A stretch of DNA of 64,000 bases from Candidatus Rokuibacteriota bacterium (GTDB lineage Bacteria; Methylomirabilota; Methylomirabilia; Rokubacteriales; CSP1-6). Below the pieces are notes generated by a model. The model was given only the letters and a program-made list of their open reading frames with translations, was not told the DNA's origin and searched no databases. A program made the translations under genes and the position numbers. Below, piece by piece: positions 1-25,182 of this stretch. The stretch spans positions 15,350 through 79,349 of the forward strand of contig JACQFL010000048.1 in assembly GCA_016200085.1 (NCBI GenBank), given 5' to 3'. Numbering within the stretch: position 1 is the first letter of the stretch; every line of letters starts with the position of its first letter.

Positions 1-506
1 GCCATGCGGCAGCGCAGCGAGTAGTACCCCGTGACCATCACGATCTCGAAGATCTCCTCATCGCTGAAGCCGACCTGGCGCAGCGTCTCGACGTTCTCGG
101 GCGTCGCCTTCGCCGGCGCCAGCGCGAGGATCTCCACGTAGCCCAGCATCGCGCGCTCCGCCTCGGGCAAGGGCAGGGCGCGCCAGTTCTGCGCCAGGGT
201 CACGACCTGCGCGGCGTCACCACCGACGATCTGACGGAGAGCCTCTCCGTGAAAGGTCGTTCAGTAGGCGCAGCGATGCAGCGCCGAGGTGAGGACGGCG
301 ATCATCTCCTGTCGGCGTTTCCCGAGGGCGCAGTGCGGGCCCCTGAGCGCGTAGAGGAGGTCGGCGAGCGCCCGCATCACCCGCGCGTTGATGCTCGCCG
401 CGCGGGCGATGTTGGACACCGAGCCGTTTTGCTGCCAGACGTGCGCATACACGTCCGCCAGCTCTCCCGTCGCCTCAGCTTCCGAGATCGTCCTGATCCA
501 GGGCAT
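1..506 (-). CDS. AhpD-like / carboxymuconolactone decarboxylase family selenoprotein. It is partial and runs off the window start, with an in-frame TGA at 261..263 read as Sec.
   Basis: Minus ORF 261..878 carries the C-terminal AhpD-like core (MPWIRTISEAEATGELADVYAHVW...ALHRCAY) and stops at a TGA exactly where the CxxCxxxH motif needs its second Cys (HRCAY-U-TTFHGEAL). The same frame continues without a stop down to position 1 (…LRQIVGG…EEIFEIVMVTGYYSL…). There is a GGAAGGAGAGG Shine-Dalgarno sequence before the ATG at 504-506. Confidence 0.65.
234..250 (-). other. SECIS-like hairpin downstream of the Sec-UGA of the AhpD-like gene
   Basis: Minus-strand RNA reads UGA ACG ACC UUU C ACGGAGA-GGC-UCUCCGU. 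This is a perfect 7-bp stem with a GGC loop, starting about 10 nt after the UGA. Confidence 0.5.
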
Positions 507-910
507 CGTCCTCTCCTTCCTGATGGGAGTGGTCGAGGGAGACCGCCCGCCCGGCGGGAGGCGTTCGAAGCGTTCCCCCGGCGCCGCGTCAGCGGCGGGC
601 GTGTCGCCAAGGAGAGCGGCAGGGTGCTCCGCGCGACGCCGGTCATCGTACACCAGACACCGGGCGCCACTTCCGACCGGTGTGGGTGAAGTGCAGGACG
701 CCAACAGTCGTCTCGTGGCAGAACCTGTCGAGCCGCCGACCGGCGTCTTCGTCTCGCGCAGCGCGCCGAGCCATGGACGGGTATCCGCCGACGAGTCCTG
801 GCCCCGGCGCTCGCCTGGCTCCGGCGGTGAGGCGGGTCTCGGGGAATAAAGCTGGCACCTGGGCTGTTCTCCGAGCACGCACGAATCTCACCTTGCCGCG
901 GGAGGGACGC

Positions 911-1405
911 ATGAAGGGTTGGGGTCGGACCGTGGGGCTGACGGCGACGGCACTGGTCATGGGCGTCGGTGGGGCGTGGGCGCAGCAGCCTGCCAAGGGC
1001 ACCCCGGCAACGGTGACGGGGCGCGTCGTCGACAACATCTGCATGCTCGGCATGGGGCTCAAGGGCGAGGGACATCGGGAGTGTGCGATCGGCTGCGACA
1101 AGGCCGGTGTGCGCATGGCGCTCCTGGACGAGAAGGCCAACGTGCTTTACACGCTGATGGCCGACAAGCCGTTCGTCGATCCCAACGCCCAGATCCGCGA
1201 GTACTTCGAGCGCGTCGTGACGATCAAGGGCGACCTCTACAGCGCGCCGGGCGGCCAGAAGGTCCTCGCCATCAAGGAAGTGCAGGCGGCCCAGGCGGGC
1301 GCGGCGGCGAACCCCTGCGCCGCGAAGAATCCGTGTGCCACGAAGAATCCCTGTGCGGCCAGGAATCCTTGCGCCGCCAAGAAGCCGGCCAGCGCGACGA
1401 AGTAG
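911..1405 (+). CDS. Secreted protein with a cysteine-containing N-domain and a C-terminal tandem NPCA(A/T)(K/R) hexapeptide repeat
   Basis: GGGAGGG Shine-Dalgarno sequence before the ATG at 911. Signal peptide MKGWGRTVGLTATALVMGVGGAWAQQ. C-terminus is NPCAAKNPCATKNPCAARNPCAAKKP. Confidence 0.7.
   Translation: MKGWGRTVGLTATALVMGVGGAWAQQPAKGTPATVTGRVVDNICMLGMGLKGEGHRECAIGCDKAGVRMALLDEKANVLYTLMADKPFVDPNAQIREYFERVVTIKGDLYSAPGGQKVLAIKEVQAAQAGAAANPCAAKNPCATKNPCAARNPCAAKKPASATK
1309..1386 (+). repeat. 18-bp in-frame tandem repeat encoding NPCAAK units (about 4 copies)
   Basis: aacccctgcgccgcgaag / aatccgtgtgccacgaag / aatccctgtgcggccagg / aatccttgcgccgccaag. Confidence 0.7.
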
Positions 1406-1474
1406 CCAGGCGAGGCCGGGTGCCCTCGGCGGACCGAAGCGAGGCAGGCGCCGCTTCGCTTCGGCCCTCGCCTC

Positions 1475-1752
1475 TCAGCACGCCGTCATCTCGACGACGT
1501 TCATCTCCGCCCCGTCACCCCAGGGCGTGCACGGCAGGCCACTCGCTTCCGACGCCCTCTCACCCGTGCTCGCGGGCGGTGACAGGATGCAGGCGATCAG
1601 CGGGTTGTCGCGCGAGGTGAGCGCGGTGATGCTGGCAGGGGGCGGCTCGGTCGCGGCGGGGACGATGGGCGGCGGCTCCGAGACGCTCGAGAGCACCTCG
1701 AGCGCCACGAAGAGGGTGCCGGCCGCCAGCGCGCTGGCCGTGACGATACGCA
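1475..1752 (-). CDS. Small hypothetical secreted protein (about 92 aa)
   Basis: Internal Met of minus ORF 1475..1867 (MRIVTASALAAGTLFVALEVLSS...), with a signal-peptide-like N-terminus. No homology recognised. Confidence 0.3.
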
Positions 1753-1962
1753 TCGTGGTCCTCGACGAAGAAACCAGGTGACCCGTGAGGATATTCCCTG
1801 GGCGCCGCCGCGCTCGCCAGAGGATTCCGGCGACGGCGCGCATTCCCTTCCACACGAGAAGGGCCAACGTGGCGGAGAGTCAACAGTGTCCCCGCTGACC
1901 GTCACGGTTCTCCTGAGCGCTCATCTCGTTCCTGGGCATCGTGTCTCCTTGCCCGAGGGGAC

Positions 1963-2409
1963 TCAAAGCGTGCGCTGATTCTCGCGATCGGCGCGCCAGC
2001 GCCGGCCAACCATGTCCGCTTCCTGCGGGGACACCGGAACCACGAAGAGCGACAGCAGCGTCCGCCCTGTTCGTAGAGGATGTACGTGGCCTGGCGCCGC
2101 CGCGCCTCCGCCAGTCGGGCGCCCAGCAGCTGGGAGGCCTTCGCGGGAGAAGTCGGGGACGGCCACGCGTACGCCGGCACGCTGCCGGAACCACCGCTCG
2201 ATTTCGCCACCATGGCTCGAGACCAGCTCCGCCGGTGACGCCTCCCGCGGCTGCCACCGCACGACGCTGCTGAGCTGTCGCTCTCGCCGAACGAGGCCCA
2301 GGCAGTCGCCGCACGTCGCCACGTGGCAATCGGCTGCCCACATCGCGTCGGCTGGCAGCTCCTCGTCGATGTAGGGGTGCAGGATGGCCTCGAATGCCGC
2401 GCAGGTCAT
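1963..2409 (-). CDS. Zinc-finger (zf-HC2, HxxxCxxC) anti-sigma-factor-like protein, a paralog of the anti-sigma at 7151..7933 that lacks the TM segment
   Basis: MTCAAFEAILHPYIDEELPADAMWAADCHVATCGDCLG... Shares the RAGVRVAVPDFS and LLSLFVVPVS blocks with the other anti-sigma. It is the C-terminal 148 aa of the spurious 583-aa ORF. Confidence 0.6.
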   Translation of the reverse strand: MTCAAFEAILHPYIDEELPADAMWAADCHVATCGDCLGLVRRERQLSSVVRWQPREASPAELVSSHGGEIERWFRQRAGVRVAVPDFSREGLPAAGRPTGGGAAAPGHVHPLRTGRTLLSLFVVPVSPQEADMVGRRWRADRENQRTL

Positions 2410-2493
2410 ACCTGACGATCTAACCCGTCCCGGCCGTGGTTTATTCCGGACGCAGTGGAATGGCGTCACACGGTCGCGTGTTCTGTTCTGTTG

Positions 2494-3711
2494 ATGACGT
2501 TCCGCCGCGCGCTCTTGCGGGGGGCATCGCTGCTGCTGGTGCTTGGCGGCACGGCTCCGGCGGGCGGAGATGCTGGCGCCGACCGGGCCTTTCTCGATCG
2601 GCACTGGCGGAGACCGGTCCCGCCACAGGGCGAGGCGCCGGCGCGGTGGTCCGCACTCGAGAAGTCGCTCGCGCCGCAGAGCTGCGGGGCCTGCCATCAG
2701 GCCCAGCTCGCCGACTGGAAGACGAGCGTCCACGCGCGCAGCTTGGGGCCGGGCGTCGCCGGCCAGCTGGTGGAGATGCGCCGGAGCGATCCCGAATCCT
2801 TCCGGCTCTGTCTGTCCTGCCATGGGCCCCTGGCGGAGCAGCAGCCGGACATCGAGCGCCACGGCCGCTCCGTGCCGAATCCCGAGTTCGACCCCGGCCT
2901 CCAGGCCGCGGGTCTCGCGTGCGCGGTGTGCCACGTGCGCCAGCACGAACGGTTCGGCCCGCCCCGCCGGATCGGGATGGCGAAGGTCACGACGCCGCGG
3001 CCATCGCTTCCCCATGGTGGGGTGACGCGGACGCCGGCGTTCTCGCAGTCGACGTTCTGCACGAGCTGCCACCAGTTCTCCTCCGATGGCTTCGCGCTGA
3101 ACGGGAAGCTGCTGGAGAACACCTACGAGGAGTGGAAGCTCAGCGCCGCCGCGCGCGTGCGCCGGCAGTGTCAGGACTGTCACATGCCCGAGCGCCGGCA
3201 CCTCTGGCGCGGCATCCACGATCCGGACATGGTGAAGTCGGGCGTCGAGATCCTCGCGACGACGGCCCAGCGCTCGTATCGGCCGGGTGACGAGCTTGTG
3301 GCCACGATCGTGGTCAGGAGCGTCGGGGTCGGCCACGATTTCCCGACCTACGTCACGCCACGCGTCGTCGTGCGCGCGGCCCTGATCGACAACACGGGGG
3401 CTGCCGTGGGGGGCAGTGGGCAGGAGTACGCCATCGCACGCGAGGTCACTCTCGACCTGTCGCGGGAGATCTCGGACACCCGCATCCCTCCCGGTGGCAG
3501 CGCGAGCTTTACGTACCGGCGACGGCTCGAGCGCAAAGGCCTTTCGCTCAGCGTGAGCGTCATGGTGTATCCCGACCATTTCTACACGGGGTTCTTCGAG
3601 TCGCTGCTCGCCTCCGGTGCGGGCGCAGGCGCCCCCCAGATCCGCGAGGCGCTCGCGGCGAGCCGGCGATCGGCCTTCGAGATCTTCCGGAAGACCGTGC
3701 GCCTGACGTGA
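2494..3711 (+). CDS. Pentaheme c-type cytochrome (five CxxCH motifs), secreted
   Basis: CGACH, CLSCH, CAVCH, CTSCH, CQDCH. Signal peptide MTFRRALLRGASLLLVLGG. A GTG at 2455 is an alternative start. Confidence 0.8.
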   Translation: MTFRRALLRGASLLLVLGGTAPAGGDAGADRAFLDRHWRRPVPPQGEAPARWSALEKSLAPQSCGACHQAQLADWKTSVHARSLGPGVAGQLVEMRRSDPESFRLCLSCHGPLAEQQPDIERHGRSVPNPEFDPGLQAAGLACAVCHVRQHERFGPPRRIGMAKVTTPRPSLPHGGVTRTPAFSQSTFCTSCHQFSSDGFALNGKLLENTYEEWKLSAAARVRRQCQDCHMPERRHLWRGIHDPDMVKSGVEILATTAQRSYRPGDELVATIVVRSVGVGHDFPTYVTPRVVVRAALIDNTGAAVGGSGQEYAIAREVTLDLSREISDTRIPPGGSASFTYRRRLERKGLSLSVSVMVYPDHFYTGFFESLLASGAGAGAPQIREALAASRRSAFEIFRKTVRLT

Positions 3712-3728
3712 CACGAGGGGAGAGACGG

Positions 3729-4082
3729 ATGCGCGTGCTCATGACGGCAGCTCTGATCGTGCTGCTGAGCGCGTGCTCGACATCGGTCGTCGCCCAGGAG
3801 CGGCGGGTCACCGCGGTTTCGCGCGCTGCGTTCGCGAAGGTCGTCGAGGCGCTCGAGCAGGCCATCACGGACCAGCACCTGGCCCTGGGCTGCCAGGCCG
3901 ATCCCCCGAAGGGCGCGGCGGCGCGCGGCATCGCCATCAAGGACAAGGGCACGACGACCGTCTCGTACATGCCACCGCCGACCGTGTTCGCACCCTACAG
4001 ACATCCGGGCGTGCGCGCCGTCGCCGCCGGGCTCGATCCGATCTTCAACGCGACCGTCGATCAGGCACTGGGCGGGCGCTGA
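3729..4082 (+). CDS. Small lipoprotein (lipobox LSAC), hypothetical
   Basis: MRVLMTAALIVLLSACSTS... in ORF 3708..4082. Confidence 0.55.
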   Translation: MRVLMTAALIVLLSACSTSVVAQERRVTAVSRAAFAKVVEALEQAITDQHLALGCQADPPKGAAARGIAIKDKGTTTVSYMPPPTVFAPYRHPGVRAVAAGLDPIFNATVDQALGGR

Positions 4083-4083
4083 C

Positions 4084-4617
4084 ATGCGGCAACGCCTCGC
4101 GCTCGTGGTTGTCGGAGGCGTGGCCGGCAGTGGGCTGTTCTGGCTGGTCCAGGTGATGACGGGCGGCCCGACCATCACCGCGTTCATGGGCGAACAGGTC
4201 GCTGCTGCCGGCGGATATCCGGCAACCCTGGCGCCCGCCTTCGGGTGGATCATCCATGTCGCCGTCGGTCTCTCGTACGCGTCACTGTTTGGGGTCGTCG
4301 TCGCCCCGCTCCGCTTGCTGCCGCGGGCCGCGCTGGCCGGAACGTCGCTCGTCATGGCAATCGTGTTCGGCTGGCTGACGACCGCCATCGCGCCGTCGGC
4401 CATCAGCGTGACGGTCGGGCTGCTCGGGCACCGGCGGTGGCCCGCCGAGATCTTTCCTTTGAATTGGGACGTCGGCTTGCCGTTCTGGAATCATCAGCTC
4501 TTCTTTCTCGCCAACTGGATCATGCAGGTGCTCGGCGGGATGGTCGTCCGTGCACGGGCGAGGTCGCGGCGGCGGAGCCTGATCACCGGGCGCGAGGGCC
4601 AGGGCGAGCGGGAATAA
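4084..4617 (+). CDS. Hypothetical integral membrane protein (4-5 TM helices)
   Basis: Hydrophobic segments. Starts 2 nt after the preceding stop. No family recognised. Confidence 0.55.
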   Translation: MRQRLALVVVGGVAGSGLFWLVQVMTGGPTITAFMGEQVAAAGGYPATLAPAFGWIIHVAVGLSYASLFGVVVAPLRLLPRAALAGTSLVMAIVFGWLTTAIAPSAISVTVGLLGHRRWPAEIFPLNWDVGLPFWNHQLFFLANWIMQVLGGMVVRARARSRRRSLITGREGQGERE

Positions 4618-4671
4618 ACGCCGGGGCCGGCGGGTTCAGGGGGAAACGTTTGTATCAAGGAGGTGAGTCGA

Positions 4672-4944
4672 ATGATCCGTCAGGTGATCGGCGGCATCGC
4701 GGTCGCGGCCGCGCTCGCCCTCGCGGGGACAGACGCTCTGGCCCAGCAGGCCAACCCGTGCGCGGCCAAGAACCCGTGCGCCACGAAGGCGGCCAATCCG
4801 TGCGCGGCCAAGAACCCGTGTGCGGCCAAGAAGCCGGCTGCTGCGAAGAACCCCTGCGCGGCCAAGAACCCCTGCGCGGCCAAGAACCCGTGTGCGGCCA
4901 AGAATCCTTGCGCCGCCAAGAATCCCTGCGCCGCCAAGAAGTAG
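4672..4944 (+). CDS. Secreted peptide made almost entirely of about 11 tandem NPCAAK-like hexapeptide repeats (about 90 aa)
   Basis: Strong AAGGAGG Shine-Dalgarno sequence. Signal peptide MIRQVIGGIAVAAALALAGTDALAQQ, then ANPCAAKNPCATKAANPCAAKNPCAAKKPAAAKNPCAAK(x5)K. Confidence 0.7.
   Translation: MIRQVIGGIAVAAALALAGTDALAQQANPCAAKNPCATKAANPCAAKNPCAAKKPAAAKNPCAAKNPCAAKNPCAAKNPCAAKNPCAAKK
4749..4938 (+). repeat. 18-bp tandem repeat array encoding NPCAAK units
   Basis: Repeated aa(c/g)cc(c/g)tg(c/t)gc(g/c)gccaag units. Confidence 0.75.
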
Positions 4945-5033
4945 GATCTTTCCGGAGCCGGCCGTGCCCCCCGGGACGCCGGGGGGCCGCCGCCCCGATT
5001 CCCGTCCGTGAGGATGATCTCGGCTCGCCGGGA

Positions 5034-6188
5034 ATGGTTCTGCCGCTCGCGGGTTTGATGCACGTCGTGGTTCTTGCGCGTCGCCTTCTGTTGAAAGTCG
5101 CCACGGTGTTGGTCCTCCTTCCGGCGCTTGCCATCAGTCCCGCATTCGCGCACGACGGTCCCCCCGCTGGCGCCGTCGTACCCAGCGAGCGCATCGATCC
5201 GCGCCAGGTCTATCCCTTCGGCGTCGTCGCCGGCGGGGGCGGACACTTCCACGTCCTGCAGGTCATGCCAGGGGAGCGACGCGTCTTTGCCGGCACCCAT
5301 CTGGGGCTGTTCGTGAGCGAAGACCGAGGGCTCACGTGGCGTCTCGTCGCGCCTCGCTTCAGCGGCGTCGACGTCCACGGCCTCGCACGCGATGCGGCCA
5401 CGGGAGCGTTGTATGCGGCGACCCACGGACAGGGCCTTCTCGTCAGCGAGGACGGTGGCACCCGGTGGCGGGACGGCTCGGCGAGCCTGCCCGGCCGCGA
5501 CCTGCACGCCCTCGCCCTCGATGCCCATGATCGGGGCACGATCTACGTCTGGTCCGTTGGCCATGGTCTCTTCGCTCGGCGAGGTCGCGTGCGGATGTGG
5601 GAACGCCTGGCGGGGCGAGAGGCCCTCACCCAGGTGGAGAGCCTCGCCATCCATCCACAGAATTCGCGGCGGCTCTACGCGGGAACCGCGGCCGGGGTGC
5701 TTGTCAGCGAGGACGGCGGCCGCCGGTGGATGCTACCGCCCGGCGGCCTCGAGCGTCGGACCGCCGGCGTCGCGGTCGTCCCGAGCCGGCCTGACATGGT
5801 CCTCGCCGCGACGTTCGACGGGGTCTTCGCCGGTCACGCAGCCGGCGCGGACTGGAAGCCGCTCGAGGCAGCGCCCTCGTGGTGGGGCCCGATCGTGGGG
5901 TTCGCGTTCGTCGGCGATCGGCCCGACACCGTCTTTGCCGTCTCGCACGAGGGACCGGTCGTCATGCGCGCGGTGTGGGATGGCCCCTGGATACCTCTCG
6001 CGGCGCGACCGCCGGCCACGAGTCGGCGAATCAGCGCCCGCCCTTCGGGGCCGGTCCACGAGCGCGGACCAACCGCAGTGGTGAGCACCCGGCCGTCACG
6101 GCCGATCAAAACCACGGTGGGCGTCGCCCGGACGCCATACGCCCGGGCGACCCGCATGTCGGGATCGAGCACCACGGGAGCGCTGTAG
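5034..6188 (+). CDS. BNR/Asp-box repeat (sialidase-like / Ycf48-like beta-propeller) secreted protein. The 3' end is uncertain.
   Basis: Repeated SxDxGxTW motifs (SEDRGLTW, SEDGGTRW, SEDGGRRW). Signal peptide (...KVATVLVLLPALAISPAFA). A TTG about 57 nt downstream of the ATG is an alternative start. The tail beyond about 6000 overlaps the convergent TlpA-like gene and may not be coding. Confidence 0.6.
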   Translation: MVLPLAGLMHVVVLARRLLLKVATVLVLLPALAISPAFAHDGPPAGAVVPSERIDPRQVYPFGVVAGGGGHFHVLQVMPGERRVFAGTHLGLFVSEDRGLTWRLVAPRFSGVDVHGLARDAATGALYAATHGQGLLVSEDGGTRWRDGSASLPGRDLHALALDAHDRGTIYVWSVGHGLFARRGRVRMWERLAGREALTQVESLAIHPQNSRRLYAGTAAGVLVSEDGGRRWMLPPGGLERRTAGVAVVPSRPDMVLAATFDGVFAGHAAGADWKPLEAAPSWWGPIVGFAFVGDRPDTVFAVSHEGPVVMRAVWDGPWIPLAARPPATSRRISARPSGPVHERGPTAVVSTRPSRPIKTTVGVARTPYARATRMSGSSTTGAL

Positions 6189-6553
6189 CCACGCGCCTTC
6201 ACCTCGCGGGCGACAGTCGTGGCGTCTTCACCGACATCGACGAGCACCGCGGTGAAGCCGTCCGGGGCGAGCTCCTTCGCCATCGCGTCGATCGAGGGCA
6301 ACTCCCTCGCGCAGTGCGGTCACCAGGTGGCCCAGAAATAGAGCATGACGAGATGGCCGCGGAACTGATCCAGCGACACCGTGTGCCCGGTGACGTCGCG
6401 CAGGCTGAAGGCCGGCGCCGTCACGGGCTCGGCCGCGGGCGCCACCCCCAGCGCGTCCCACAGCGCCGAGTCCGTCGTGGCACCCGCCGCGGCGGAGGCG
6501 ACGAACAGGACGCCGAGGACCACACTCGCCCAGGGGGGTCGCCGCGTGATCAC
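5834..6553 (-). CDS. TlpA/thioredoxin-like (redoxin) selenoprotein, periplasmic. In-frame TGA at 6320..6322 read as Sec (U-P-H-C). The 3' end is uncertain.
   Basis: ORFs 6320..6553 and 5834..6301 are in the same frame, separated only by a TGA: ...LVMLYFWATW-U-PHCARELPSIDAMAKELAP...ATPTVVLIGRDGRV. This is the thioredoxin WCxxC motif with the first Cys coded as UGA. Signal peptide MITRRPPWASVVLGVLFVASAAAGA. Confidence 0.65.
6293..6309 (-). other. SECIS-like hairpin downstream of the Sec-UGA of the TlpA-like gene
   Basis: UGA CCG CAC UGC G CGAGGG-AGUUG-CCCUCG. A 6-bp stem with a 5-nt loop, starting 10-11 nt after the UGA. Confidence 0.5.
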
Positions 6554-7134
6554 GCTTGAACCTCCCGCATCGAGTGGGTGGGGCGCGCTCTCACGTCGAT
6601 CGCGAGACGGCTGAGGATCTCGAGCGAGCGATCGTTGAACGGATCCACGCCGGGATTGGCGAGGCGGTGCTCGGCGAGGCGTGTGATCTTTCCCTCCTGG
6701 AGCCGCTCGATCTGGGGAGTGAACGCCTGGAATACCAGATTGACGAACCGCACGAGGCGCGCGTCACCCCGGGTTTCGTCGATGCGAAACCGACGCGCAT
6801 ACCGTTTGAGAGCCGCCCCGCTCTCGTACCGGTCTCCGATCGCCCAGAGGTTCAGGGTGAACAGCGCCTGCGGCCAGCCGTCACGCGCCATGGAGATGGC
6901 GACGAGATGCACGGTGTGATCGGGGAACAGCCTTACCGTGTGGAAATGTCCGGCCTCGTGCGTCGCGCCGTCGTGACGGTGAAAATATGACTGGCAGCCC
7001 GTGTCGCGGTCGAAGACCCCGTAGTCGTCCGGATACAAGGTCCAGGGCGTCACGTCGCGACCGCCGCAGGCGAGCTCCATCACCGTCGTGCCGTCACGCT
7101 CGAGCGCGGTGAGCAGCTGGCGAAGCTCGGTCAT
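6550..7134 (-). CDS. Hypothetical cupin-like protein (HRHDG...EAGHFH His cluster)
   Basis: Internal Met MTELRQLL of ORF 6550..7221. ATGA overlap with the downstream TlpA-like gene. Confidence 0.5.
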   Translation of the reverse strand: MTELRQLLTALERDGTTVMELACGGRDVTPWTLYPDDYGVFDRDTGCQSYFHRHDGATHEAGHFHTVRLFPDHTVHLVAISMARDGWPQALFTLNLWAIGDRYESGAALKRYARRFRIDETRGDARLVRFVNLVFQAFTPQIERLQEGKITRLAEHRLANPGVDPFNDRSLEILSRLAIDVRARPTHSMREVQA

Positions 7135-7150
7135 GGCCCTGGCCACGGGA

Positions 7151-7933
7151 TCAGAGACGGTTGCGCTCGGCACGCTCGAGGCGGAGCCGGTCGGCGCACT
7201 CGAGGAGCGCGTCGTAATCAAGCGCCGACACCAGGCCGAAGACCGCGCGGCCGTCCGTCCACGCCACCGTCCGATAACCCTTCAGGTCTTTCGCGAAGTA
7301 CTCCTGCCCGCGGAAGGTCACAGGTCGGCCGGTCAGGTGCGCGTCGGGGCCGCTGACCGGCACGACGAACACCGACAGGAGCGTCCGGCCCTTCTCGTAG
7401 AAGATGTAGGCCACTTTGCGCTCGTGTGCCTCGGCGAGGCGGCCGCCGATCAACTGGATGCCCGCCGGCGAGTAGTCCGGAACGGCCACGCGAAGGCCGG
7501 CCCGCTGCTGGAACCACTGCTCGAGCTCGCCGCGGTCATTCGAGGCGAGCTCCACGGGCCGCTCGATCTGGGCGTAGGCGATGTGCTTGTCGACGAGCTC
7601 GGCCAGGAGCGGGGCGGAGGGCCGGCTCGCGGGCAAGAGGACCGCCACGAGGAGCGCCGCCACCGCGGCGGCGAGCGGCGCCACGAGCCAGGGGCGCCAC
7701 GCGACGCGGCGCTGCTCGCGGCGCACGAGCGCGGTGATCTTCGCGCGGAACTCCGGCGACGCCGCTTCCCGGGGCTGGCGGCGGAGGACCTCGCGGAACT
7801 GGCGCTCGCGCCCGAGGAGACCGGCGCAGTCCCGGCACCCCGCGAGGTGCGCGTCCGCCGCCGCCATCGCCTCCACCGGCAACTCGCCATCGAGGTAGGG
7901 ATGCACGCTCGCCGCGAATTCTCTGCAGCTCAT
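7151..7933 (-). CDS. Anti-sigma factor: zf-HC2 (HxxxCxxC) N-domain, one TM segment, periplasmic C-domain
   Basis: MSCREFAASVHPYLDGELPVEAMAAADAHLAGCRDCAG... 4-nt overlap with the upstream ECF sigma gene. Confidence 0.8.
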   Translation of the reverse strand: MSCREFAASVHPYLDGELPVEAMAAADAHLAGCRDCAGLLGRERQFREVLRRQPREAASPEFRAKITALVRREQRRVAWRPWLVAPLAAAVAALLVAVLLPASRPSAPLLAELVDKHIAYAQIERPVELASNDRGELEQWFQQRAGLRVAVPDYSPAGIQLIGGRLAEAHERKVAYIFYEKGRTLLSVFVVPVSGPDAHLTGRPVTFRGQEYFAKDLKGYRTVAWTDGRAVFGLVSALDYDALLECADRLRLERAERNRL

Positions 7934-8523
7934 TCCTCGTCCCTCACGTATCCATGCTCGCGCGCCAGCCGCGTGAGGGCCTGCCGCAGCAGGTGCCGGC
8001 CCCGCGACAGGCGGGACATCACGGTGCCCACCGGGCAGCCGACGACGTCGGCGACCTCCCGATAGCTGAGGCCCTCGAGGTCCACGAGCACCACGGCCTC
8101 GCGGAACACCAGGGGCAGGCCTTTGAGCGCCCGATCGACGTCACCATGCAGGACGGTCTGGAAGAACGCTTCCTCCGGGTTGACGAACCCCATCGACGTC
8201 GCGCTGGGCTGGCCGGTCTCCCACACGGCCGCATCGGGCTCCAGGACCTCACGCCCGTCCTTGCGCAGCCGATTCAGGAACACGTTTCTGAGAATCGTGA
8301 GGAGCCAGGCGCGACAGTTGGTCCCCGGGTTGAACCGGTGAAAGTTGCGGAACGCCCGCAGCACCGCCTCCTGGACCACATCCTCGGCCTCCCCCCGGCT
8401 GCGCGTCAGACGAAGCGCCGTCTGGTAGAGCGTCTCGAGATGGACGAGGGCCGTCCGCTCGAACTCGCTGCCCTCCGATGCCGCGGTCCGCCAGGGAATC
8501 GGAAACCCTCCTGTCGTGAGAAC
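7930..8523 (-). CDS. ECF (sigma-70 family, RpoE-like) sigma factor
   Basis: Regions 2 and 4 are recognisable (LVHLETLYQTALRLT..., LPLVFREAVVLVDLEGLSYREVADVVGCPVGTVMSRLSRGRHLLRQ). The GTG at 8523 is a guess. The ORF extends to 8682. Confidence 0.7.
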   Translation of the reverse strand, partial: VLTTGGFPIPWRTAASEGSEFERTALVHLETLYQTALRLTRSRGEAEDVVQEAVLRAFRNFHRFNPGTNCRAWLLTILRNVFLNRLRKDGREVLEPDAAVWETGQPSATSMGFVNPEEAFFQTVLHGDVDRALKGLPLVFREAVVLVDLEGLSYREVADVVGCPVGTVMSRLSRGRHLLRQALTRLAREHGYVRDEE

Positions 8524-8566
8524 ACCACGACCCGCGCGGATATTCCGGCCTCGGGGGTGGCCCCGC

Positions 8567-9655
8567 TCAGGGAGCCGTACCGAGGATCGTCGTCGGGTGA
8601 AACGCCGCCCAGGCGAACCAGAACGCATCGACGTGAGGGATCGCACGCAGCCGGCGTCCCGCCAGCGGCCCCTTGACCCCACGGCCGAGCAGGTTCCAGG
8701 TCGTGCCGGTCTCCCGGTCGCGGAAGCCCCCCTCGTTTGCCTCGAATGTCAGGCTCTTTCCGTCGAGCATTCGACTGTAGACGGCGGTGGCGCCGACCGC
8801 GCGCGACCGCTCGATCCGCGCATCGTCGAGCGCCGAGAGGGCGCCCGGCTGAAAGAAGATCACGAGCGCCTCGCGGTCGATGGCGTCGTGCAGCACCCGC
8901 CGCTCGGCCAGAATCGGCCAGGGGTACGCCTTGGCCGTCTCGCCGATCTTCACGCCGACCACGCGCTCCTTCGGTGGCCGACGCGTATCCGGCCGACCGT
9001 TGAAGAGGAACGGACGAAGCTCCGGCTGATCGTATGACCCGTAGGGATTGGCGCCGTACTGGCGCTGGTGTCCCGTCTCCCGCGACAGGACCTTGCCGTC
9101 CGGGTGGGCCGCCTTCCAGTCCGCGAACGCGATCGTGTTGGCGGGCACCAGCGCGAGCCGCGTCCCCGCACGCTGGCCGACGAGGGCCCGACCTTCCATC
9201 TGCGCCCAGAGCGAGTGGCTCTGACGGTCGTACATGACGAGGTCGCTCTTGTACACCTTGCCCGACGTCCCGAAGTCGAGCGTCACGTCTCCGACCACCC
9301 GGTCGAACGCGATGCCCGAGTTGCGCAGCGGACAGAAGGTCACGACGACAGGCTTGCCCCCGACGGTGTCGTTCACGATCTCGTGCCACATGAGAATCTG
9401 GAGCGGATACGCCCGCGCATCGCCGTTGATCTCCAGCGCGAGCACGGGCTCCTGGGGCACCAGCCACGCGGCTTGACGCGCGGCGATGAACGCCGGTCGA
9501 TCGATCGCCGGGATGCCGTCTGGAGGCGGGCCGCCGGGGATGATCTCGTCGAGCGGGACCAGCGCCTTGCTCTCGTCGGTCCTGAGCCGCTCGGCGGTCG
9601 CCGCCGAAGCGATCAGGACGGTCAGCGCCACCATGATCGGTACGCGTTTCAACAT
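8567..9655 (-). CDS. DUF3179 family secreted protein
   Basis: Internal Met MLKRVPIMVALTVLIASAATA of ORF 8567..10048. Confidence 0.6.
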   Translation of the reverse strand: MLKRVPIMVALTVLIASAATAERLRTDESKALVPLDEIIPGGPPPDGIPAIDRPAFIAARQAAWLVPQEPVLALEINGDARAYPLQILMWHEIVNDTVGGKPVVVTFCPLRNSGIAFDRVVGDVTLDFGTSGKVYKSDLVMYDRQSHSLWAQMEGRALVGQRAGTRLALVPANTIAFADWKAAHPDGKVLSRETGHQRQYGANPYGSYDQPELRPFLFNGRPDTRRPPKERVVGVKIGETAKAYPWPILAERRVLHDAIDREALVIFFQPGALSALDDARIERSRAVGATAVYSRMLDGKSLTFEANEGGFRDRETGTTWNLLGRGVKGPLAGRRLRAIPHVDAFWFAWAAFHPTTILGTAP

Positions 9656-10129
9656 CTGCCGGCTCACGTGGTCCCTCCCTCGGGCGCGTCCGGCCTTACG
9701 GCGCCTGCACGGGCTCGCTCCGGTGCGACGCATCGATGGTCCGGGAGGACGTTCCAGGCGACGCGGCGGGTGACAGCGTGTCCATCGTCGCCTCCTTGCA
9801 GCGCCCTTCTCGGCGCCGTCACTGTAGAACACGCGGCGGGCCACCTCCATTCCCGCTCGGTCGCGAATCGCCATCGTTTCAAGCTCGGCAGGGGGCGGAT
9901 CGTGCGACTCGGAGAGTCGCCGTAGCGGAAGTCGCTGACGACGATGGGGTTTGTGCCCCGAAACGCCATCGGAGGAGCGGCTGGAGAGAAGACCCGGGAC
10001 GTTCGCGCGGAGGGGTCCGGAGAGCGGAAAGATCGGGTGACGCTGCACGATGTCGAGGTTAGCGGCCGGTCATCGGCCCCGGGGCGCCCGGCGGTCGTGG
10101 ACAGATCGTTTCACGCGTCGTGGCGCTGA

Positions 10130-11020
10130 TTAGACCGTCCGCTCCCGCTCGCCGAAGAGGCCGGTGGGGCGGATGACGAGCAGGCCGATCAGGAACACGA
10201 AGCCGTAGAGATCCTTGTAGGCGGCCGAGAAGAACACCGAGCCCAGGGCCTCGATGAGGCCGAGGAGCACGCCGCCGACGACCGATCCCAGGATGGAGCC
10301 GAGGCCCCCGATCACGATGATCTCGAAGCCCTTGAACGTCGAGATCGCCCCGCCCTCCGGATAGACGAGGAAGTCCGGCGCGAGGAGGGCCCCGGCCGCC
10401 GCGGCCAGGGCCACGCCCACGCCGAACGCGAGCATGTCGAGTCGGAGCACGTCGACCCCGGCGGTCTGGATGCCGACGCGGTTCTGGGCGGCGCCACGGA
10501 ACGCCGTCCCGATCCACGTGCGCTTCACGAGCAGGTAGAAGAGCGCGAGCAGCGCCAGCGTGGCGATGAGGGCCACGAAGCGGTTGCCGGAGATGGGCAG
10601 GGTGAGCAGCGTGGTCGGGCGCGCGTAGTCCCGCGGCGCGTACTGGTTGGGCCCGCCGAGCACGACGGCGAGGTTCCGGAAGAGGACCATGAGCGCGATG
10701 GTGACGATCGTCGCGTACTCGTCACGCCGCTCGATCCCCCGCACGTACATCGGGCGCAGGAGCACGCGCTGCGTGACGAGCCCGAGCACGAAGACCGCCC
10801 CCATCGTGAGCGGCAGCGCGATCCACCAGCGCCCCGGGCCGAGCACGGTGGCCAGCAGCGCGTACTGCACGTAGCTGCCGATCATGTAGAACTCGCCCAT
10901 GGCCCAGTTGATCATCTTCATGATGCCGTAGATGAACGTGATCCCGAGCGCCATCAGGCTGTAGATGACCCCGATGACGAGCCCCGAGAGCACGTACTGG
11001 GACAGGAGGAACGCGTCCAC
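10130..11020 (-). CDS. livH: Branched-chain amino acid ABC transporter permease (LivH-type)
   Basis: 296-aa polytopic protein with a typical LivH signature. Confidence 0.8.
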   Translation of the reverse strand: MDAFLLSQYVLSGLVIGVIYSLMALGITFIYGIMKMINWAMGEFYMIGSYVQYALLATVLGPGRWWIALPLTMGAVFVLGLVTQRVLLRPMYVRGIERRDEYATIVTIALMVLFRNLAVVLGGPNQYAPRDYARPTTLLTLPISGNRFVALIATLALLALFYLLVKRTWIGTAFRGAAQNRVGIQTAGVDVLRLDMLAFGVGVALAAAAGALLAPDFLVYPEGGAISTFKGFEIIVIGGLGSILGSVVGGVLLGLIEALGSVFFSAAYKDLYGFVFLIGLLVIRPTGLFGERERTV

Positions 11021-11023
11021 GCC

Positions 11024-12244
11024 CTACTTTTTGGGGGCCATCAGCAGGTCGCCCGTCTTCAGCTCGGGCGGGAAGATGATCTTGGCCTCGGTGAAGACCT
11101 GCTCGGGCCGCGTGTACTGCATGAAGAGCATCGGCGGGGTCCACTGCTGCCAGTACGGGCCCTCGCCGCGGGTGAAGCTGATGGTGCCGTTCCAGCCCTC
11201 GAACTTGCTGGCGAGCAGGGCCTTGACGAGGCTCTCGCCCGCCTCGCTCCTGGCCGCGTTCAGCGCGTCGGCGAGCAGCGTGATCTGGGCGTAGCCGTTC
11301 AGCGCGCCGTAGACGGGATCCTCCTTGAACTGCTCGCGGTACTTCGTGCGGAACGCCTCGCCCCGCGGGGTCAGCTTCATCGTCGGGTGGTAGTAGGTGA
11401 TGAAGGTGACGTACGTGCCCTTCTCGCCGAGGTTCTTCCAGAACTCGGGACGGGCGGGCAGGTCGTAGGATACGAGCATCGGGGTGGCGGGGAAGAGCGC
11501 GACGTCGGAGGCCTGCTTGAGGATGAGGTACACGGGCGTGCCGACGCCCACGTTGATCAGGAGGTCCGGCTTCCAGCTCTTGATCTCCAGCAGCTGCGGG
11601 GTGAGGTCCACCACCGCCCGGTCGAACATGACCGTCTTGAGCTCGGCCGCGACGTCCATGGTCTTGAAGAGCTTCTTGGTGTCCTCGACCACGCCGACGC
11701 CGTAGTCGGTGTTCTCGGCCAGCACCGCTACCCGCTTGAAGCCCTGCTGCTTGATCCAGCGGTTCCAGATCGTCACGCGATCGGGGTCGATCACGTGGGT
11801 GCGGAACGTGTACGCGAGGTGCCGCTCGGTGATGCCCTTGGCGGAGGCCTGGGTGGAGAAGACGGGGATCTTGAACTGCTCGGCCAGGTCCTGCACGGCG
11901 CCCATCACCGAGCTGTGGAACTGGCCGATGACGGCCACGGCCCTGTCCTGGCTGGCCAGCTTCCGGAAGCCGGCCACGCCCTTCTCCGGCGTGCCGGAGT
12001 CGTCCTCGACGACCAGCTCGATCTTCCGCCCTCCGAGCACCCCGCCGCGGGCGTTCACGTCGTCGGCGGCCATCTTGGCGCCGCGGACGATGAACTGCCC
12101 GGCCGCGGCATCGCCGGGCGGCGAGAGCGGGGTCAGGACGCCGATCTTGACCGGATTCTGAGCGAGCGCCGGCGCGACGAGCCCCACACCGGCGATGGCC
12201 GTGAGCACCGCGACCGCACTGGCAAGCCAGCGATGACGTCTCAT
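11024..12244 (-). CDS. Branched-chain amino acid ABC transporter substrate-binding protein (LivK/LivJ family)
   Basis: Signal peptide, then a periplasmic binding protein type I fold. Confidence 0.8.
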   Translation of the reverse strand: MRRHRWLASAVAVLTAIAGVGLVAPALAQNPVKIGVLTPLSPPGDAAAGQFIVRGAKMAADDVNARGGVLGGRKIELVVEDDSGTPEKGVAGFRKLASQDRAVAVIGQFHSSVMGAVQDLAEQFKIPVFSTQASAKGITERHLAYTFRTHVIDPDRVTIWNRWIKQQGFKRVAVLAENTDYGVGVVEDTKKLFKTMDVAAELKTVMFDRAVVDLTPQLLEIKSWKPDLLINVGVGTPVYLILKQASDVALFPATPMLVSYDLPARPEFWKNLGEKGTYVTFITYYHPTMKLTPRGEAFRTKYREQFKEDPVYGALNGYAQITLLADALNAARSEAGESLVKALLASKFEGWNGTISFTRGEGPYWQQWTPPMLFMQYTRPEQVFTEAKIIFPPELKTGDLLMAPKK

Positions 12245-12359
12245 GTCGATCCTCCCCGGCGAGCCTTCGCGTGCCCGGCGCTCGAGCGCCGAGCGCCCGG
12301 CGGAAGGCCGCCATCCGCGCGGATTCTACCCGATGCGCGAGCGCCTCGTCTCCGGGCCC

Positions 12360-13142: not shown

Positions 13143-13147
13143 GGCGC

Positions 13148-13921: not shown

Positions 13922-13942
13922 GAAGCCTCCGTGGGACCGGGC

Positions 13943-14338: not shown

Positions 14339-14339
14339 G

Positions 14340-15604: not shown

Positions 15605-15683
15605 GGTCAGAGGGTCGACTCCAGGGCCCGCGGCGTACGCTTCACGAGCCGGGATTCTAGCGCGGGACGTGTAGAATCAGGCC

Positions 15684-16754: not shown

Positions 16755-16784
16755 GCCCGACCGGCCGGGAGATCGGGAGCGCGC

Positions 16785-18797: not shown

Positions 18798-18870
18798 CCC
18801 CGCGCGTGTCACCGATCTATTGGAGGACGTGTTCGGCTCCGTTCACCGCTGAGGTCTTCCGGGAGGCCGC

Positions 18871-20111: not shown

Positions 20112-20112
20112 A

Positions 20113-20889: not shown

Positions 20890-20895
20890 ACCTCG

Positions 20896-20916
20896 GAGGG
20901 GGGTTTCGCCCCCCTT
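20896..20916 (+). terminator. GC-rich hairpin after the permease gene
   Basis: gaGGGGGGtttcgCCCCCCtt. No clear U-tract. Confidence 0.4.
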
Positions 20917-24797: not shown

Positions 24798-24827
24798 GAC
24801 CCCGCGAGGTGTATACTCCGGAGAGTC

Positions 24828-25181: not shown

Positions 25182-25182
25182 G

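What the first reader, a model, noticed from the sequence alone, without database searches (positions are those of the whole stretch)
4672..4944. Peptide of about 90 aa consisting of a signal peptide plus about 11 NPCAAK repeats
Behind a strong AAGGAGG Shine-Dalgarno sequence lies a second gene that is essentially a pure repeat array: ANPCAAKNPCATKAANPCAAKNPCAAKKPAAAKNPCAAK… through to the C-terminus. That makes two paralogous repeat carriers within 4 kb, in an island with a pentaheme cytochrome and Sec redoxins. A gene that is only a repeat array looks like a dedicated product, for example a periplasmic Cys-Lys polymer for metal or chalcogen sequestration, or a precursor for a modifying enzyme, not a domain tail. 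Copy-number variation in the 18-bp repeats would be expected.
Basis: seen in the sequence. Interest (0 to 1): 0.75.

Follow-up and report, generated by a model that had tools for sequence, protein, structure and literature searches.

The report
Secreted NPCAAK poly-cysteine repeat peptide
This is a real gene for a small exported peptide made almost entirely of NPCAAK repeats; the same undescribed cysteine "arm" occurs in hundreds of bacterial species, usually beside or fused to periplasmic haem enzymes, and its function has not been tested.

Summary
ORF 4672-4944 (+) encodes a 24-residue signal peptide followed by 10 hexapeptide units (8 NPCAAK, 1 NPCATK, 1 degenerate KPAAAK). The mature 66 residues carry 9 Cys and 12 Lys. 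Identical units differ only at third codon positions.

No Pfam or NCBIfam model and no paper describes the motif. Relatives were found in at least 441 stretches of a one-genome-per-species collection, across many phyla.

The module occurs free or as disordered arms on SoxA/TsdA-like cytochrome c, cytochrome P460, YHS, thioredoxin and OB-fold proteins. Recurrent neighbours are DUF6969, a MccSep-like pentahaem cytochrome lacking that enzyme's catalytic Cys and Sec, DUF302, a YeeE/YedE-like transporter, DUF3179 and TlpA.

In the window, GGAAT-N18-GTT (SigR/SigH-type promoter) occurs 7 times, all in the first 10 kb (0.34 expected). One site lies directly before this gene.

Best reading (inferred, about 0.4): a disordered cationic polythiol that captures or carries thiophilic inorganic species, most likely sulfur or selenium compounds, for periplasmic haem enzymes, within a thiol-stress regulon. 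Metal sequestration, sacrificial antioxidant and RiPP precursor remain rivals.

Unit number varies: 7-11 Cys among orthologues, and 0-4 units in the second carrier's tail.

The parts
4611..4636 (+). ECF (SigR/SigH-type) promoter-like site GGAAT-N18-GTT directly upstream of the peptide gene; its -35 element overlaps the stop codon of the preceding membrane-protein gene
   Evidence: 7 exact sites in the window, all in the first 10 kb, 0.34 expected; the same motif lies 62-140 nt upstream of peptide genes in 12 Rokubacteria, Methylomirabilia and Tectimicrobiota loci.
4657..4663 (+). Shine-Dalgarno sequence AAGGAGG, 8 nt before the ATG
   Evidence: read directly.
4672..4944 (+). Gene for the 90-aa NPCAAK peptide precursor (stop codon included)
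4672..4743 (+). Predicted Sec signal peptide MIRQVIGGIAVAAALALAGTDALA, with A-L-A followed by QQ as the cleavage site and no lipobox
   Evidence: Read from the sequence. The same N-terminal layout is seen in homologues. No signal-peptide predictor was available.
4753..4940 (+). Array of ten 18-bp units: 8 NPCAAK, 1 NPCATK and 1 KPAAAK
4966..4987 (+). 9-bp G+C hairpin after the stop codon; a possible terminator or attenuator before the next gene
   Evidence: z = -1.36, so it is not exceptional for this G+C content.
843..868 (+). Same promoter type, upstream of the second carrier
911..1405 (+). Second carrier: signal peptide, periplasmic OB-fold domain with a conserved C-x10-H-x2-C-x3-C insert, and a 4-unit NPCAAK tail (1309-1383)
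2457..2482 (+). Same promoter type, upstream of the pentahaem cytochrome operon
2494..3711 (+). Pentahaem c-type cytochrome. It is homologous to the polysulfide reductase MccSep/ExtKL but lacks the haem-ligating Cys and the Sec.
   Evidence: bioRxiv 10.1101/2025.11.18.688581.
3708..4082 (+). DUF302-related lipoprotein (lipobox LSAC)
4084..4617 (+). Small multi-pass membrane protein with no family match
   Evidence: One homologue was found next to a peptide gene, in L018.
5034..6188 (+). Exported BNR / F510_1955-like beta-propeller protein downstream of the peptide gene. Its 3' end overlaps the convergent TlpA ORF.
5834..6553 (-). TlpA-like thioredoxin selenoprotein (W-U-P-H-C; TGA at 6322-6320)
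6553..7134 (-). DUF6969, a cytoplasmic protein with an invariant His cluster. It is the most frequent neighbour of NPCAAK genes.
7151..7933 (-). Membrane-anchored zf-HC2 (ZAS, H-x3-C-x2-C) anti-sigma factor
7930..8628 (-). ECF sigma factor whose best match is SigH_actino TIGR02947. The start codon is uncertain. A promoter-like site lies at 8546-8521 (-).
8567..9657 (-). Exported DUF3179 protein. A promoter-like site lies at 9853-9828 (-).

Best explanation
**Shown**
- The ORF is a genuine gene.
- Its product is a Sec-exported, strongly cationic polythiol of 66 residues with 9 Cys, 12 Lys and no acidic residues. By analogy with the second carrier's modelled tail it is disordered.
- It is the free-standing form of a widespread, undescribed N-P-C-A-A-K "arm" module.
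- It has its own ECF-type promoter-like site, one of 7 such sites confined to this 10-kb island.

**Inferred mechanism**
- After export, the thiolates act as flexible covalent capture and carrier sites. The neighbouring Lys would lower their pKa and attract anionic substrates.
- The substrates would be thiophilic inorganic species. Sulfane-sulfur, polysulfide or thiosulfate-type compounds, or their selenium analogues, are the most likely.
- The arms would present these species to periplasmic haem enzymes. Here that enzyme is a MccSep-like pentahaem cytochrome that has lost both catalytic chalcogen residues. In other bacteria it is a SoxA/TsdA-like or P460 cytochrome fused directly to the arms.
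- TlpA/CcdA-type reductants would reset the thiols.
- A YeeE/YedE-like channel together with cytoplasmic DUF6969 would handle any imported product.
- The whole set would be switched on by a redox-sensitive zinc anti-sigma factor, that is, by thiol-reactive stress.
For: **Real gene and family**
- SD, ATG and signal peptide are present.
- Differences between identical units are third-position only.
- 385 homologues were found, 302 clusters at 50% identity, and at least 441 relative-encoding stretches in one-genome-per-species contigs.

**Motif constraint**
- Over 1516 sites in 111 proteins: N 93%, P 100%, C 100%, A 85%, A 80%, K 69%. Cys spacing is 6 in 947 cases.
- Such constraint points to a specific partner.

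**Fusions**
- Arms flank a SoxA/TsdA-like monohaem domain in about 41-45 of 85 loci. That domain scores 30.6 bits on PF21342 (cut-off 27), and SoxA is its best NCBIfam match.
- Arms also occur on cytochrome P460, a YHS (seleno)protein and thioredoxin.

**Neighbours within 10 kb in 85 loci**
- DUF6969 in 44, cupredoxin-like in 28, DUF3179 in 18-27, pentahaem in 21-22, DUF302-like in 20-23, YeeE/YedE-like in 21, TlpA in 15-17.

**Pentahaem cytochrome**
- It matches MccSep at E 8.6e-10. MccSep is a polysulfide and selenite reductase that uses C239 and U325.
- All 19 full-length neighbours carry LLENTY and FPTYVTP at those positions.

**Sulfur links in the literature**
- DUF302 and YeeE/YedE lie in sox clusters (PMC5037610, PMC11034169).
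- YeeE-type proteins import thiosulfate or sulfur (PMC7449682, PMC11582611).

**Regulon**
- 7 sites against 0.34 expected.
- The motif is conserved and enriched in related loci.
- The anti-sigma factor carries the ZAS motif and matches RsrA. The sigma factor's best match is the SigH type.

**Disorder**
- The tail has pLDDT about 42 in the AF2 model of the second carrier.
Against: - There are no expression or biochemical data.
- The substrate is not identified.
- Canonical sox genes are not among the recurrent neighbours.
- MerR-family metal-type regulators (9 loci), a true mer operon next to one locus (L003) and MerA-like flavoproteins (15 loci) point towards metals instead.
- TlpA and CcdA could be present simply for cytochrome c maturation.
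- This window has no SoxA-like cytochrome.
- His/Cys ligation of the fused cytochrome domain is inferred from an invariant Cys 39 residues after the haem His. It was not tested.
- DUF6969 also occurs without any repeat peptide, for example in Azospirillum.
- Periplasmic DsbA would tend to oxidise these thiols.
Confidence: 0.4

Rival explanations
1. Periplasmic metallothionein-like buffer: the thiolates chelate soft metals such as Hg(II), Cu(I), Ag(I) and Cd(II). The attached or adjacent cytochromes may then reduce the bound ion.
For: - MerR-family regulators with metal-type Cys spacing occur next to the genes in 9 loci.
- A merRTPA cluster lies beside the Nitrosomonas locus.
- There are YHS-domain fusions.
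- MerA-like flavoproteins occur in 15 loci.
- Several neighbour families have selenoprotein forms that a review links to metal and metalloid resistance.
- In Skermanella the peptide sits beside an ECF sigma and NrsF pair. SigF and NrsF regulate the copper-binding bufferins (PMC11626156).
Against: - No efflux pump or P-type ATPase is among the recurrent neighbours.
- The peptide has +12 net charge and no His, Met, Asp or Glu.
- It has single Cys every 6 residues and none of the CxxC, CC or CxC motifs.
- The strict N-P-C-A-A-K conservation is not needed for a sponge.
- The MerA-like protein lacks the C-terminal Cys pair.
Confidence: 0.25
2. Sacrificial periplasmic redox buffer, a cysteine analogue of the methionine-rich peptide MrpX. 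The thiols are oxidised by HOCl, peroxide, NO-derived species or electrophiles, and are then re-reduced by TlpA/CcdA.
For: - Control is by an ECF sigma with a ZAS anti-sigma factor (RsrA-like), or with NrsF in Skermanella.
- A TlpA-like Sec thioredoxin and an AhpD-like Sec protein lie in the island.
- CcdA occurs in 7 loci.
- The precedent is PMC4436054.
- P460 fusions fit nitrogen-oxide stress in nitrifiers and NC10-type bacteria.
Against: - It does not explain why the arms are built into SoxA-like cytochromes.
- It does not explain why a YeeE-like importer, DUF302 and cytoplasmic DUF6969 are core partners.
- A generic sink would not need the fixed hexapeptide.
Confidence: 0.2
3. Precursor of a modified peptide (RiPP-like): Cys residues are altered before or after export by DUF6969, by the periplasmic FGE-like protein or by a radical SAM enzyme.
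For: - DUF6969 is the commonest neighbour and has an invariant His cluster suggesting a metal centre.
- An FGE-sulfatase-like protein occurs in 19 loci and an ArsS-type radical SAM in 7.
- Sec-signal RiPP precursors exist (bufferins, PMC11626156).
- The fixed motif would suit enzyme recognition.
- In S. meliloti pSymA only the peptide-DUF6969 pair is present.
Against: - No MNIO (DUF692/DUF2063), SPASM maturase, leader peptidase or dedicated exporter is recurrent.
- The module is mostly an arm on folded proteins, on both termini.
- DUF6969 also occurs without a peptide.
- The FGE recognition motif CxPxR is absent.
Confidence: 0.07
4. Not a functional gene: a low-complexity ORF or an assembly artefact.
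For: - A near-identical public contig breaks about 100 bp downstream.
- High G+C content gives many spurious ORFs on all frames here.
Against: - Variation between units is synonymous only.
- A promoter-like site, SD and signal peptide are present.
- Orthologues with the same layout occur in 12 related MAGs and in hundreds of species, including isolates.
Confidence: 0.02

Closest known systems
MrpX, the methionine-rich periplasmic peptide of Azospira suillum (PMC4436054)
   Same: - It is a small Sec-exported peptide made of one redox-active residue plus charged residues.
- It is encoded beside, and controlled by, an ECF sigma / anti-sigma pair.
- A dedicated periplasmic reductase is proposed to regenerate it.
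   Different: - The reactive residue here is Cys rather than Met (no Met in the mature peptide).
- The hexapeptide repeat is strict.
- There is no YedY/MsrP partner.
- The partners are haem proteins.
- The module is also fused to enzymes.
Bufferins (BufA1/BufA2, MNIO-modified RiPP metallophores; PMC11626156)
   Same: - The Cys-bearing product carries a Sec signal peptide.
- It is periplasmic.
- It is governed by stress sigma factors; an NrsF-type pair lies beside the Skermanella homologue.
   Different: - There is no DUF692/DUF2063 pair.
- There is no DUF2282 or BUF_6/12Cys fold.
- The peptide is disordered and repetitive.
- No modification has been shown.
SoxY carrier arm with SoxAX cytochrome (Sox thiosulfate oxidation)
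   Same: - A flexible Cys-bearing arm works with a SoxA-type c cytochrome.
- DUF302 and YeeE/YedE genes also accompany sox clusters (PMC5037610, PMC11034169).
   Different: - There is no GGCGG C-terminus and no SoxZ.
- There are many Cys per chain.
- The arms are fused to the cytochrome itself.
- The SoxA match is below the family cut-off (26 bits against 110).
MccSep / ExtKL multihaem selenoprotein polysulfide reductase (bioRxiv 10.1101/2025.11.18.688581; PDB 9wt8, 9wt9)
   Same: The neighbouring cytochrome shares the five CxxCH sites and aligns across the region that carries MccSep's active-site residues, up to the loop that bears the Sec (E 8.6e-10).
   Different: The haem-ligating Cys (C239) and the Sec (U325) are replaced by LLENTY and FPTYVTP in all 19 neighbours examined.
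Metallothioneins and the Mer thiol relay (MerP/MerT/NmerA)
   Same: - The protein is Cys-rich.
- Flexible Cys-bearing segments could pass a thiophilic ligand between proteins.
   Different: - There are no CxxC, CC or CxC motifs.
- The peptide is highly cationic.
- It is periplasmic and repetitive.
- Metal binding has not been tested.

Membership tests
Any curated protein family (Pfam-A, NCBIfam) | Significant match of the peptide to a family model | tested here: not met
   No family was found for the window peptide at E <= 0.01, or for three homologous stand-alone peptides at E <= 1.
Bufferin-type RiPP precursors | N-terminal Sec signal peptide on a Cys-bearing precursor | tested here: met
   The sequence shows n-, h- and c-regions and an A-L-A site. 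No predictor was run.
Bufferin-type RiPP precursors | Adjacent MNIO (DUF692) and DUF2063 genes | tested here: not met
   No such Pfam hit was found among the island's genes. Neither family is among the gene families that recur in 7 or more of the 85 loci.
Bufferin-type RiPP precursors | DUF2282 or BUF_6/12Cys small folded domain | tested here: not met
   There is no Pfam match. The repeat tail is modelled as disordered, with pLDDT about 42.
MrpX-type sacrificial peptide system | Small exported peptide rich in Met (about 20%) and charged residues | tested here: not met
   The mature peptide has 0 Met, 9 Cys and 12 Lys.
MrpX-type sacrificial peptide system | SigF/NrsF control and an adjacent YedY/MsrP reductase | tested here: inconclusive
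   The window has an ECF sigma with a ZAS anti-sigma factor rather than NrsF, and no YedY. The Skermanella homologue lies beside an ECF sigma and NrsF.
SoxY sulfur carrier | C-terminal GGCG(G) swinging arm and a SoxZ partner | tested here: not met
   The peptide ends ...NPCAAKK. No SoxY/SoxZ-like family is among the recurrent neighbours.
SoxA / TsdA cytochromes (the domain fused to the arms elsewhere) | Family-level match and a His/Cys-ligated haem | tested here: inconclusive
   PF21342 scores 30.6 bits against a cut-off of 27. TIGR04484 SoxA scores 26 bits against a cut-off of 110. An invariant Cys lies 39 residues after the haem His, but ligation cannot be tested here.
MccSep / ExtKL (the neighbouring cytochrome) | Five CxxCH motifs | tested here: met
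MccSep / ExtKL (the neighbouring cytochrome) | Haem-ligating Cys (C239) and Sec/Cys at U325 | tested here: not met
   The alignment places Leu/Glu and Val at these positions. All 19 neighbours carry LLENTY and FPTYVTP. NF040886 scores 53 bits against a cut-off of 250.
Metallothionein | Clustered CxC, CxxC or CC motifs | tested here: not met
   Cys spacing is 6 (947 cases), 5 (196) or 3 (53). The residues flanking Cys are Pro and Ala.
SigR/SigH-RsrA-type ECF regulon | GGAAT-N18-GTT promoters before regulon genes, including the sigma gene itself | tested here: met
   There are 7 sites against 0.34 expected, all within 10 kb, including one before the sigma gene. The motif is conserved in related loci. 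The consensus itself is recalled from the SigR/SigH literature.
SigR/SigH-RsrA-type ECF regulon | ZAS anti-sigma factor with H-x3-C-x2-C, and a sigma factor of the SigH/SigR family | tested here: inconclusive
   zf-HC2 scores 35 bits and RsrA TIGR03988 scores 47.8 against a cut-off of 62.5. SigH_actino scores 158.8 against a cut-off of 251.6. Unlike RsrA, the anti-sigma factor is membrane-anchored.

The most novel reading that the evidence does not exclude
NPCAAK arrays would be a new class of multivalent, trans-acting cysteine carriers.

- They would supply the catalytic or ligand thiol to periplasmic haem enzymes that have lost their own. The example here is the MccSep-like pentahaem subfamily, which lacks both the haem-ligating Cys and the Sec.
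- They would shuttle covalently bound sulfur or selenium species between SoxA-like or P460 haems, a YeeE-like channel and cytoplasmic DUF6969.
- That would make them a previously unrecognised periplasmic sulfur/selenium relay present in many phyla.
Probability: 0.15. Interest if true: 0.9.

Novelty: new variant of a known kind. Interest (0 to 1): 0.7.

Why it matters
**Scale.** A strictly conserved secreted hexapeptide repeat is present in hundreds of species. These include nitrifiers, iron and sulfur oxidisers, tubeworm symbionts, cyanobacteria, Rokubacteria and culturable Stutzerimonas, Aromatoleum, Hahella and Sinorhizobium. It has no family model and no literature.

**Operon.** It marks a conserved operon of unknown-function proteins: DUF6969, DUF302, DUF3179, a cupredoxin-like protein and a YeeE-like channel. 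The operon also contains unusual haem enzymes.

**What could follow if the carrier idea is right.**
- It would give a function to several DUF families.
- It would explain a Cys/Sec-less branch of the newly described MccSep polysulfide reductases.
- It would add a new way of handling reactive sulfur, selenium or metal species in the periplasm.

**Testability.** Several hosts are culturable and the peptide is easy to synthesise, so the hypothesis can be tested directly.

Tried and rejected
- **Literature:** searches for NPCAAK and five substrings found nothing relevant. DUF6969 appears in no paper.
- **Family scans:** Pfam and NCBIfam scans of the peptide found nothing.
- **Sec for Cys inside arrays:** no real case in 173 arrays from 84 loci. 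The two regex hits were spurious.
- **Second carrier domain:** it gave only a generic OB-fold.
- **Plasmid collection:** there was no match for the peptide, because the low-complexity filter is on. DUF6969 hits led to Skermanella and S. meliloti pairs, but Azospirillum has DUF6969 without a peptide.
- **Alignment-based genome scan:** The single-protein scan worked.
- **Strain-level copy number:** a metagenome scan for DNA encoding the signal peptide found nothing. The closest public contig ends just after the gene.
- **Classical ECF motif GGAAY-N16-19-CGTT:** not enriched.
- **Terminator after the gene:** the hairpin is not significant.
- **Rejected ORFs:** the antisense ORFs 4655-5194 (-) and 4680-5654 (-) and the long + frame ORF 4245-6188 across the array were set aside as products of high G+C. 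The + strand BNR protein has family matches.
Full report
**1. Observation**

AAGGAGG lies at 4657-4663 and the ATG at 4672. The ORF runs to the TAG at 4942-4944.

The product is MIRQVIGGIAVAAALALAGTDALA-QQ-ANPCAAKNPCATKAANPCAAKNPCAAKKPAAAKNPCAAK(NPCAAK)4K. Tandem Repeats Finder gives 4753-4940, period 18, 10.1 copies.

Counted exactly, there are 10 units: 8 NPCAAK, 1 NPCATK and 1 Cys-less KPAAAK. The mature 66 residues consist of 23 Ala, 12 Lys, 10 Pro, 9 Asn, 9 Cys, 2 Gln and 1 Thr.

The eight identical-peptide units occur in six nucleotide versions. Every difference is at a third codon position. This is the signature of selection on the peptide. It argues against a non-coding repeat or a collapsed perfect repeat.

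Orthologues start MIRQ/MVRQ. This fixes ATG 4672 rather than the GTG at 4663, which overlaps the Shine-Dalgarno sequence.

The second carrier (911-1405, tail 1309-1383) is also real.

**2. Source and assembly caveat**

The best genomic relatives are Candidatus Rokubacteria and Methylomirabilia MAGs, at 68-79% identity.

One public Rokubacteria contig, JACOTH010000094.1, is 99.94% identical to window 5046-17083. It ends at 5046, about 100 bp beyond the peptide stop codon.

So the gene is certainly real, since orthologues exist in a dozen related MAGs. The exact unit number in this assembly cannot be cross-checked.

**3. The family**

No Pfam or NCBIfam model matches the peptide. No paper in the library contains the motif.

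It is nevertheless common:
- 385 proteins at E <= 1e-3 in the word-indexed search.
- 302 clusters at 50% identity in the exhaustive search.

Carriers include Beta-, Gamma- and Alphaproteobacteria, Nitrospinota, Cyanobacteria, Acidobacteriota, Tectimicrobiota, Planctomycetes and Binatia. Isolates include Stutzerimonas, Aromatoleum, Psychromonas, Hahella and Terasakiella.

Across 111 distinct proteins and 1516 Pro-Cys sites the motif is tightly fixed. The residue frequencies are N 93%, P 100%, C 100%, A 85%, A 80% and K 69%. Cys-to-Cys spacing is 6 in 947 cases, 5 in 196 and 3 in 53.

No array has Sec in place of Cys.

**4. Architectures**

Loci usually hold more than one carrier: 173 arrays in 84 loci.

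Stand-alone peptides of 65-125 aa with a signal peptide are one class, with about 53 examples.

The commonest class, in about 41-45 of 85 loci, has this layout:
- signal peptide
- NPCAAK(n)
- a monohaem domain of about 110 aa
- NPCAAK(n)

That domain matches PF21342 SoxA/TsdA above the cut-off, and SoxA is its best NCBIfam match. It has invariant CxxCH, YPH, MVQxC and PM.

Other hosts of the arms:
- cytochrome P460
- a YHS (seleno)protein
- thioredoxin
- small beta domains
- the OB-fold domain of the window's second carrier

In that second-carrier family, orthologues more than 70% identical carry 0, 1, 2, 3 or 4 tail units. Rokubacterial stand-alone orthologues carry 7-11 Cys. The predicted copy-number variation is therefore seen.

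The tail is modelled as disordered, with pLDDT about 42.

This gene is the free form of a module that is more often an arm.

**5. Gene neighbourhood**

The window's proteins were searched against 85 loci, and all ORFs were also clustered de novo.

| Neighbour within 10 kb | Loci (of 85) |
|---|---|
| DUF6969 | 44 |
| Three-Cys cupredoxin-like protein | 28 |
| ECF sigma | 27 |
| DUF3179 | 18-27 |
| Pentahaem cytochrome | 21-22 |
| YeeE/YedE-like transporter | 21 |
| DUF302-like | 20-23 |
| Exported FGE-like protein | 19 |
| TlpA | 15-17 |
| MerA-like flavoprotein without the C-terminal Cys pair | 15 |
| Small ZAS anti-sigma factor | 13 |
| CMD | 11 |
| MerR-family regulator | 9 |
| CcdA | 7 |
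| ArsS-type radical SAM | 7 |

Many loci are short contigs, so these are minimum figures.

A canonical proteobacterial order emerges: (peptide) - arm-bearing cytochrome - (pentahaem - FGE-like) - DUF6969 - cupredoxin-like - DUF302 - YeeE-like.

Two plasmids show a minimal set:
- Skermanella pSM-3 has DUF6969 - ANPCAAK peptide - DUF302 - ECF sigma - NrsF.
- S. meliloti 1021 pSymA has an APCAAG-repeat exported ORF directly before DUF6969.

DUF6969 is not always paired with a peptide; Azospirillum is an example.

**6. Regulation in the window**

GGAAT-N18-GTT is the consensus I recall for SigR/SigH-type ECF sigma factors. It occurs 7 times in the 64-kb window, against 0.34 expected. None of 100 shuffles reached 7. 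All seven sites lie in the first 10 kb and all are correctly oriented.

| Site | Strand | Gene downstream |
|---|---|---|
| 843 | + | second carrier |
| 1797 | - | small exported Cys protein |
| 2447 | - | second ZAS-like gene |
| 2457 | + | pentahaem cytochrome operon |
| 4611 | + | NPCAAK peptide |
| 8546 | - | sigma gene |
| 9853 | - | DUF3179 |

An N17 variant lies at the start of the BNR gene.

The motif recurs 62-140 nt upstream of peptide genes in 12 related loci. It is enriched in those loci, at 3-8 sites per locus.

The sigma factor's best match is SigH_actino. The anti-sigma factor carries H-x3-C-x2-C and matches RsrA. Both matches are below the curated cut-offs.

The operon order is sigma - anti-sigma - DUF6969 - TlpA(Sec).

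Co-regulation with the ECF sigma is therefore strongly supported in silico. Expression itself has not been tested.

**7. Clues to chemistry**

- **Pentahaem cytochrome.** It is homologous to MccSep (PDB 9wt8 and 9wt9, E 8.6e-10).
  - MccSep is a periplasmic polysulfide and selenite reductase. Its active site uses a haem-ligating Cys (C239) and a Sec (U325).
  - In the window protein these positions align with Leu/Glu and Val.
  - All 19 full-length neighbours have LLENTY and FPTYVTP instead.
  - This is a distinct subfamily that lacks both chalcogen residues in cis.
- **Fused cytochrome elsewhere.** It is SoxA/TsdA-like, from a family that makes and breaks S-S bonds at His/Cys haems.
- **DUF302 and YeeE/YedE.** Both accompany sox clusters (PMC5037610, PMC11034169). 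From the titles and abstracts listed, YeeE-type proteins import thiosulfate or sulfur (PMC7449682, PMC11582611).
- **Selenoprotein forms.** Several partner families have them: DUF3179, YHS, TlpA, CMD, ArsS and YeeE. Two are selenoproteins in this window.
- **DUF6969.** It is cytoplasmic. It has an invariant H52, H54, E60 and H65 plus H76, with H63 conserved in at least 90% of sequences. The AF2 model is confident (pLDDT 86). No structural relative was found in the PDB.

**8. Interpretation**

The fixed hexapeptide, the physical fusion to haem enzymes and the sulfur-linked partners favour one reading. The thiolates would be specific capture and carrier sites working with haem catalysts on thiophilic inorganic species, most likely sulfur or selenium compounds. 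The system would be expressed under thiol-reactive stress.

This is inference, and I put it at about 0.4.

Metal buffering is a live rival at 0.25. MerR-type regulators, mer adjacency and YHS fusions support it. The cationic, motif-poor sequence and the lack of efflux partners argue against it.

An MrpX-like sacrificial buffer stands at 0.2. A RiPP precursor stands at 0.07. An artefact is very unlikely, at 0.02.

**9. Novelty**

The closest known things are MrpX (PMC4436054), bufferins (PMC11626156) and the SoxY arm with SoxAX. The defining features of each were tested, and the peptide fails them all.

It belongs to the known general kind of stress-regulated, exported, redox-active peptides. 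As a motif, as a fusion module and as an operon it is undescribed.

Noticed in passing
window 6322-6320 (-) within 5834-6553; window 263-261 (-) within 1-506: There are two selenoprotein candidates. One is a TlpA-like thioredoxin with W-U-P-H-C. The other is a CMD/AhpD-like protein with C-A-Y-U, whose gene runs off the left end of the window. Both in-frame stops are TGA, and each has a hairpin starting about 13 nt downstream, where a bacterial SECIS element would sit.
   Followed up: partly
window 843, 1797(-), 2447(-), 2457, 4611, 8546(-), 9853(-); N17 variant at 5031: Seven exact GGAAT-N18-GTT sites (0.34 expected) are all confined to the first 10 kb. They define a compact ECF regulon of mostly exported proteins.
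   Followed up: yes
window 1478-1753 (-): A small exported protein of about 91 aa lies behind one of the ECF promoter-like sites. It has a signal peptide and three Cys, and ends ...EMTAC immediately before a TGA. A very stable hairpin follows (z = -3.2), probably a bidirectional terminator shared with the second carrier. No family was assigned.
   Followed up: partly
window 1963-2408 (-): A second ZAS-like gene is a paralogue of the anti-sigma factor at 7151-7933. It lacks the membrane segment. Part of its homology continues in another frame (ORF 1902-2213), so it looks frameshifted or decaying, yet it keeps its own ECF promoter-like site.
   Followed up: partly
window 2494-3711 and 19 homologues in loci L001-L080: This is a conserved subfamily of MccSep-like pentahaem cytochromes in which the catalytic haem-ligating Cys and the Sec/Cys are replaced by LLENTY and FPTYVTP. 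It is regularly encoded next to NPCAAK genes.
   Followed up: partly
[not shown]
   Followed up: partly
window 1-10000 versus 10000-30000: Island genes have lower third-position G+C (0.79-0.92) than the housekeeping genes that follow (0.94-0.98), although overall G+C is similar. This may reflect foreign origin or different expression.
   Followed up: no
window 5046: The public contig JACOTH010000094.1 (99.94% identical) ends here, about 100 bp after the repeat gene. In that contig a gene was called on the antisense strand of the BNR gene.
   Followed up: yes
window 5834-6188: The convergent BNR-like (+) and TlpA-like (-) ORFs overlap by about 350 bp. The C-terminal tails of both look like antisense read-through rather than real domain sequence.
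   Followed up: no
L087 5610-6564 (S. meliloti 1021 pSymA): An exported ORF with APCAAG repeats and proline-rich stretches lies directly before a DUF6969 gene in a model rhizobium. It is a variant of the motif without Asn or Lys, and it is a tractable system for genetics.
   Followed up: partly
window 24824-24924 (+): A TPP riboswitch (RF00059, 56.3 bits), unrelated to the finding.
   Followed up: no
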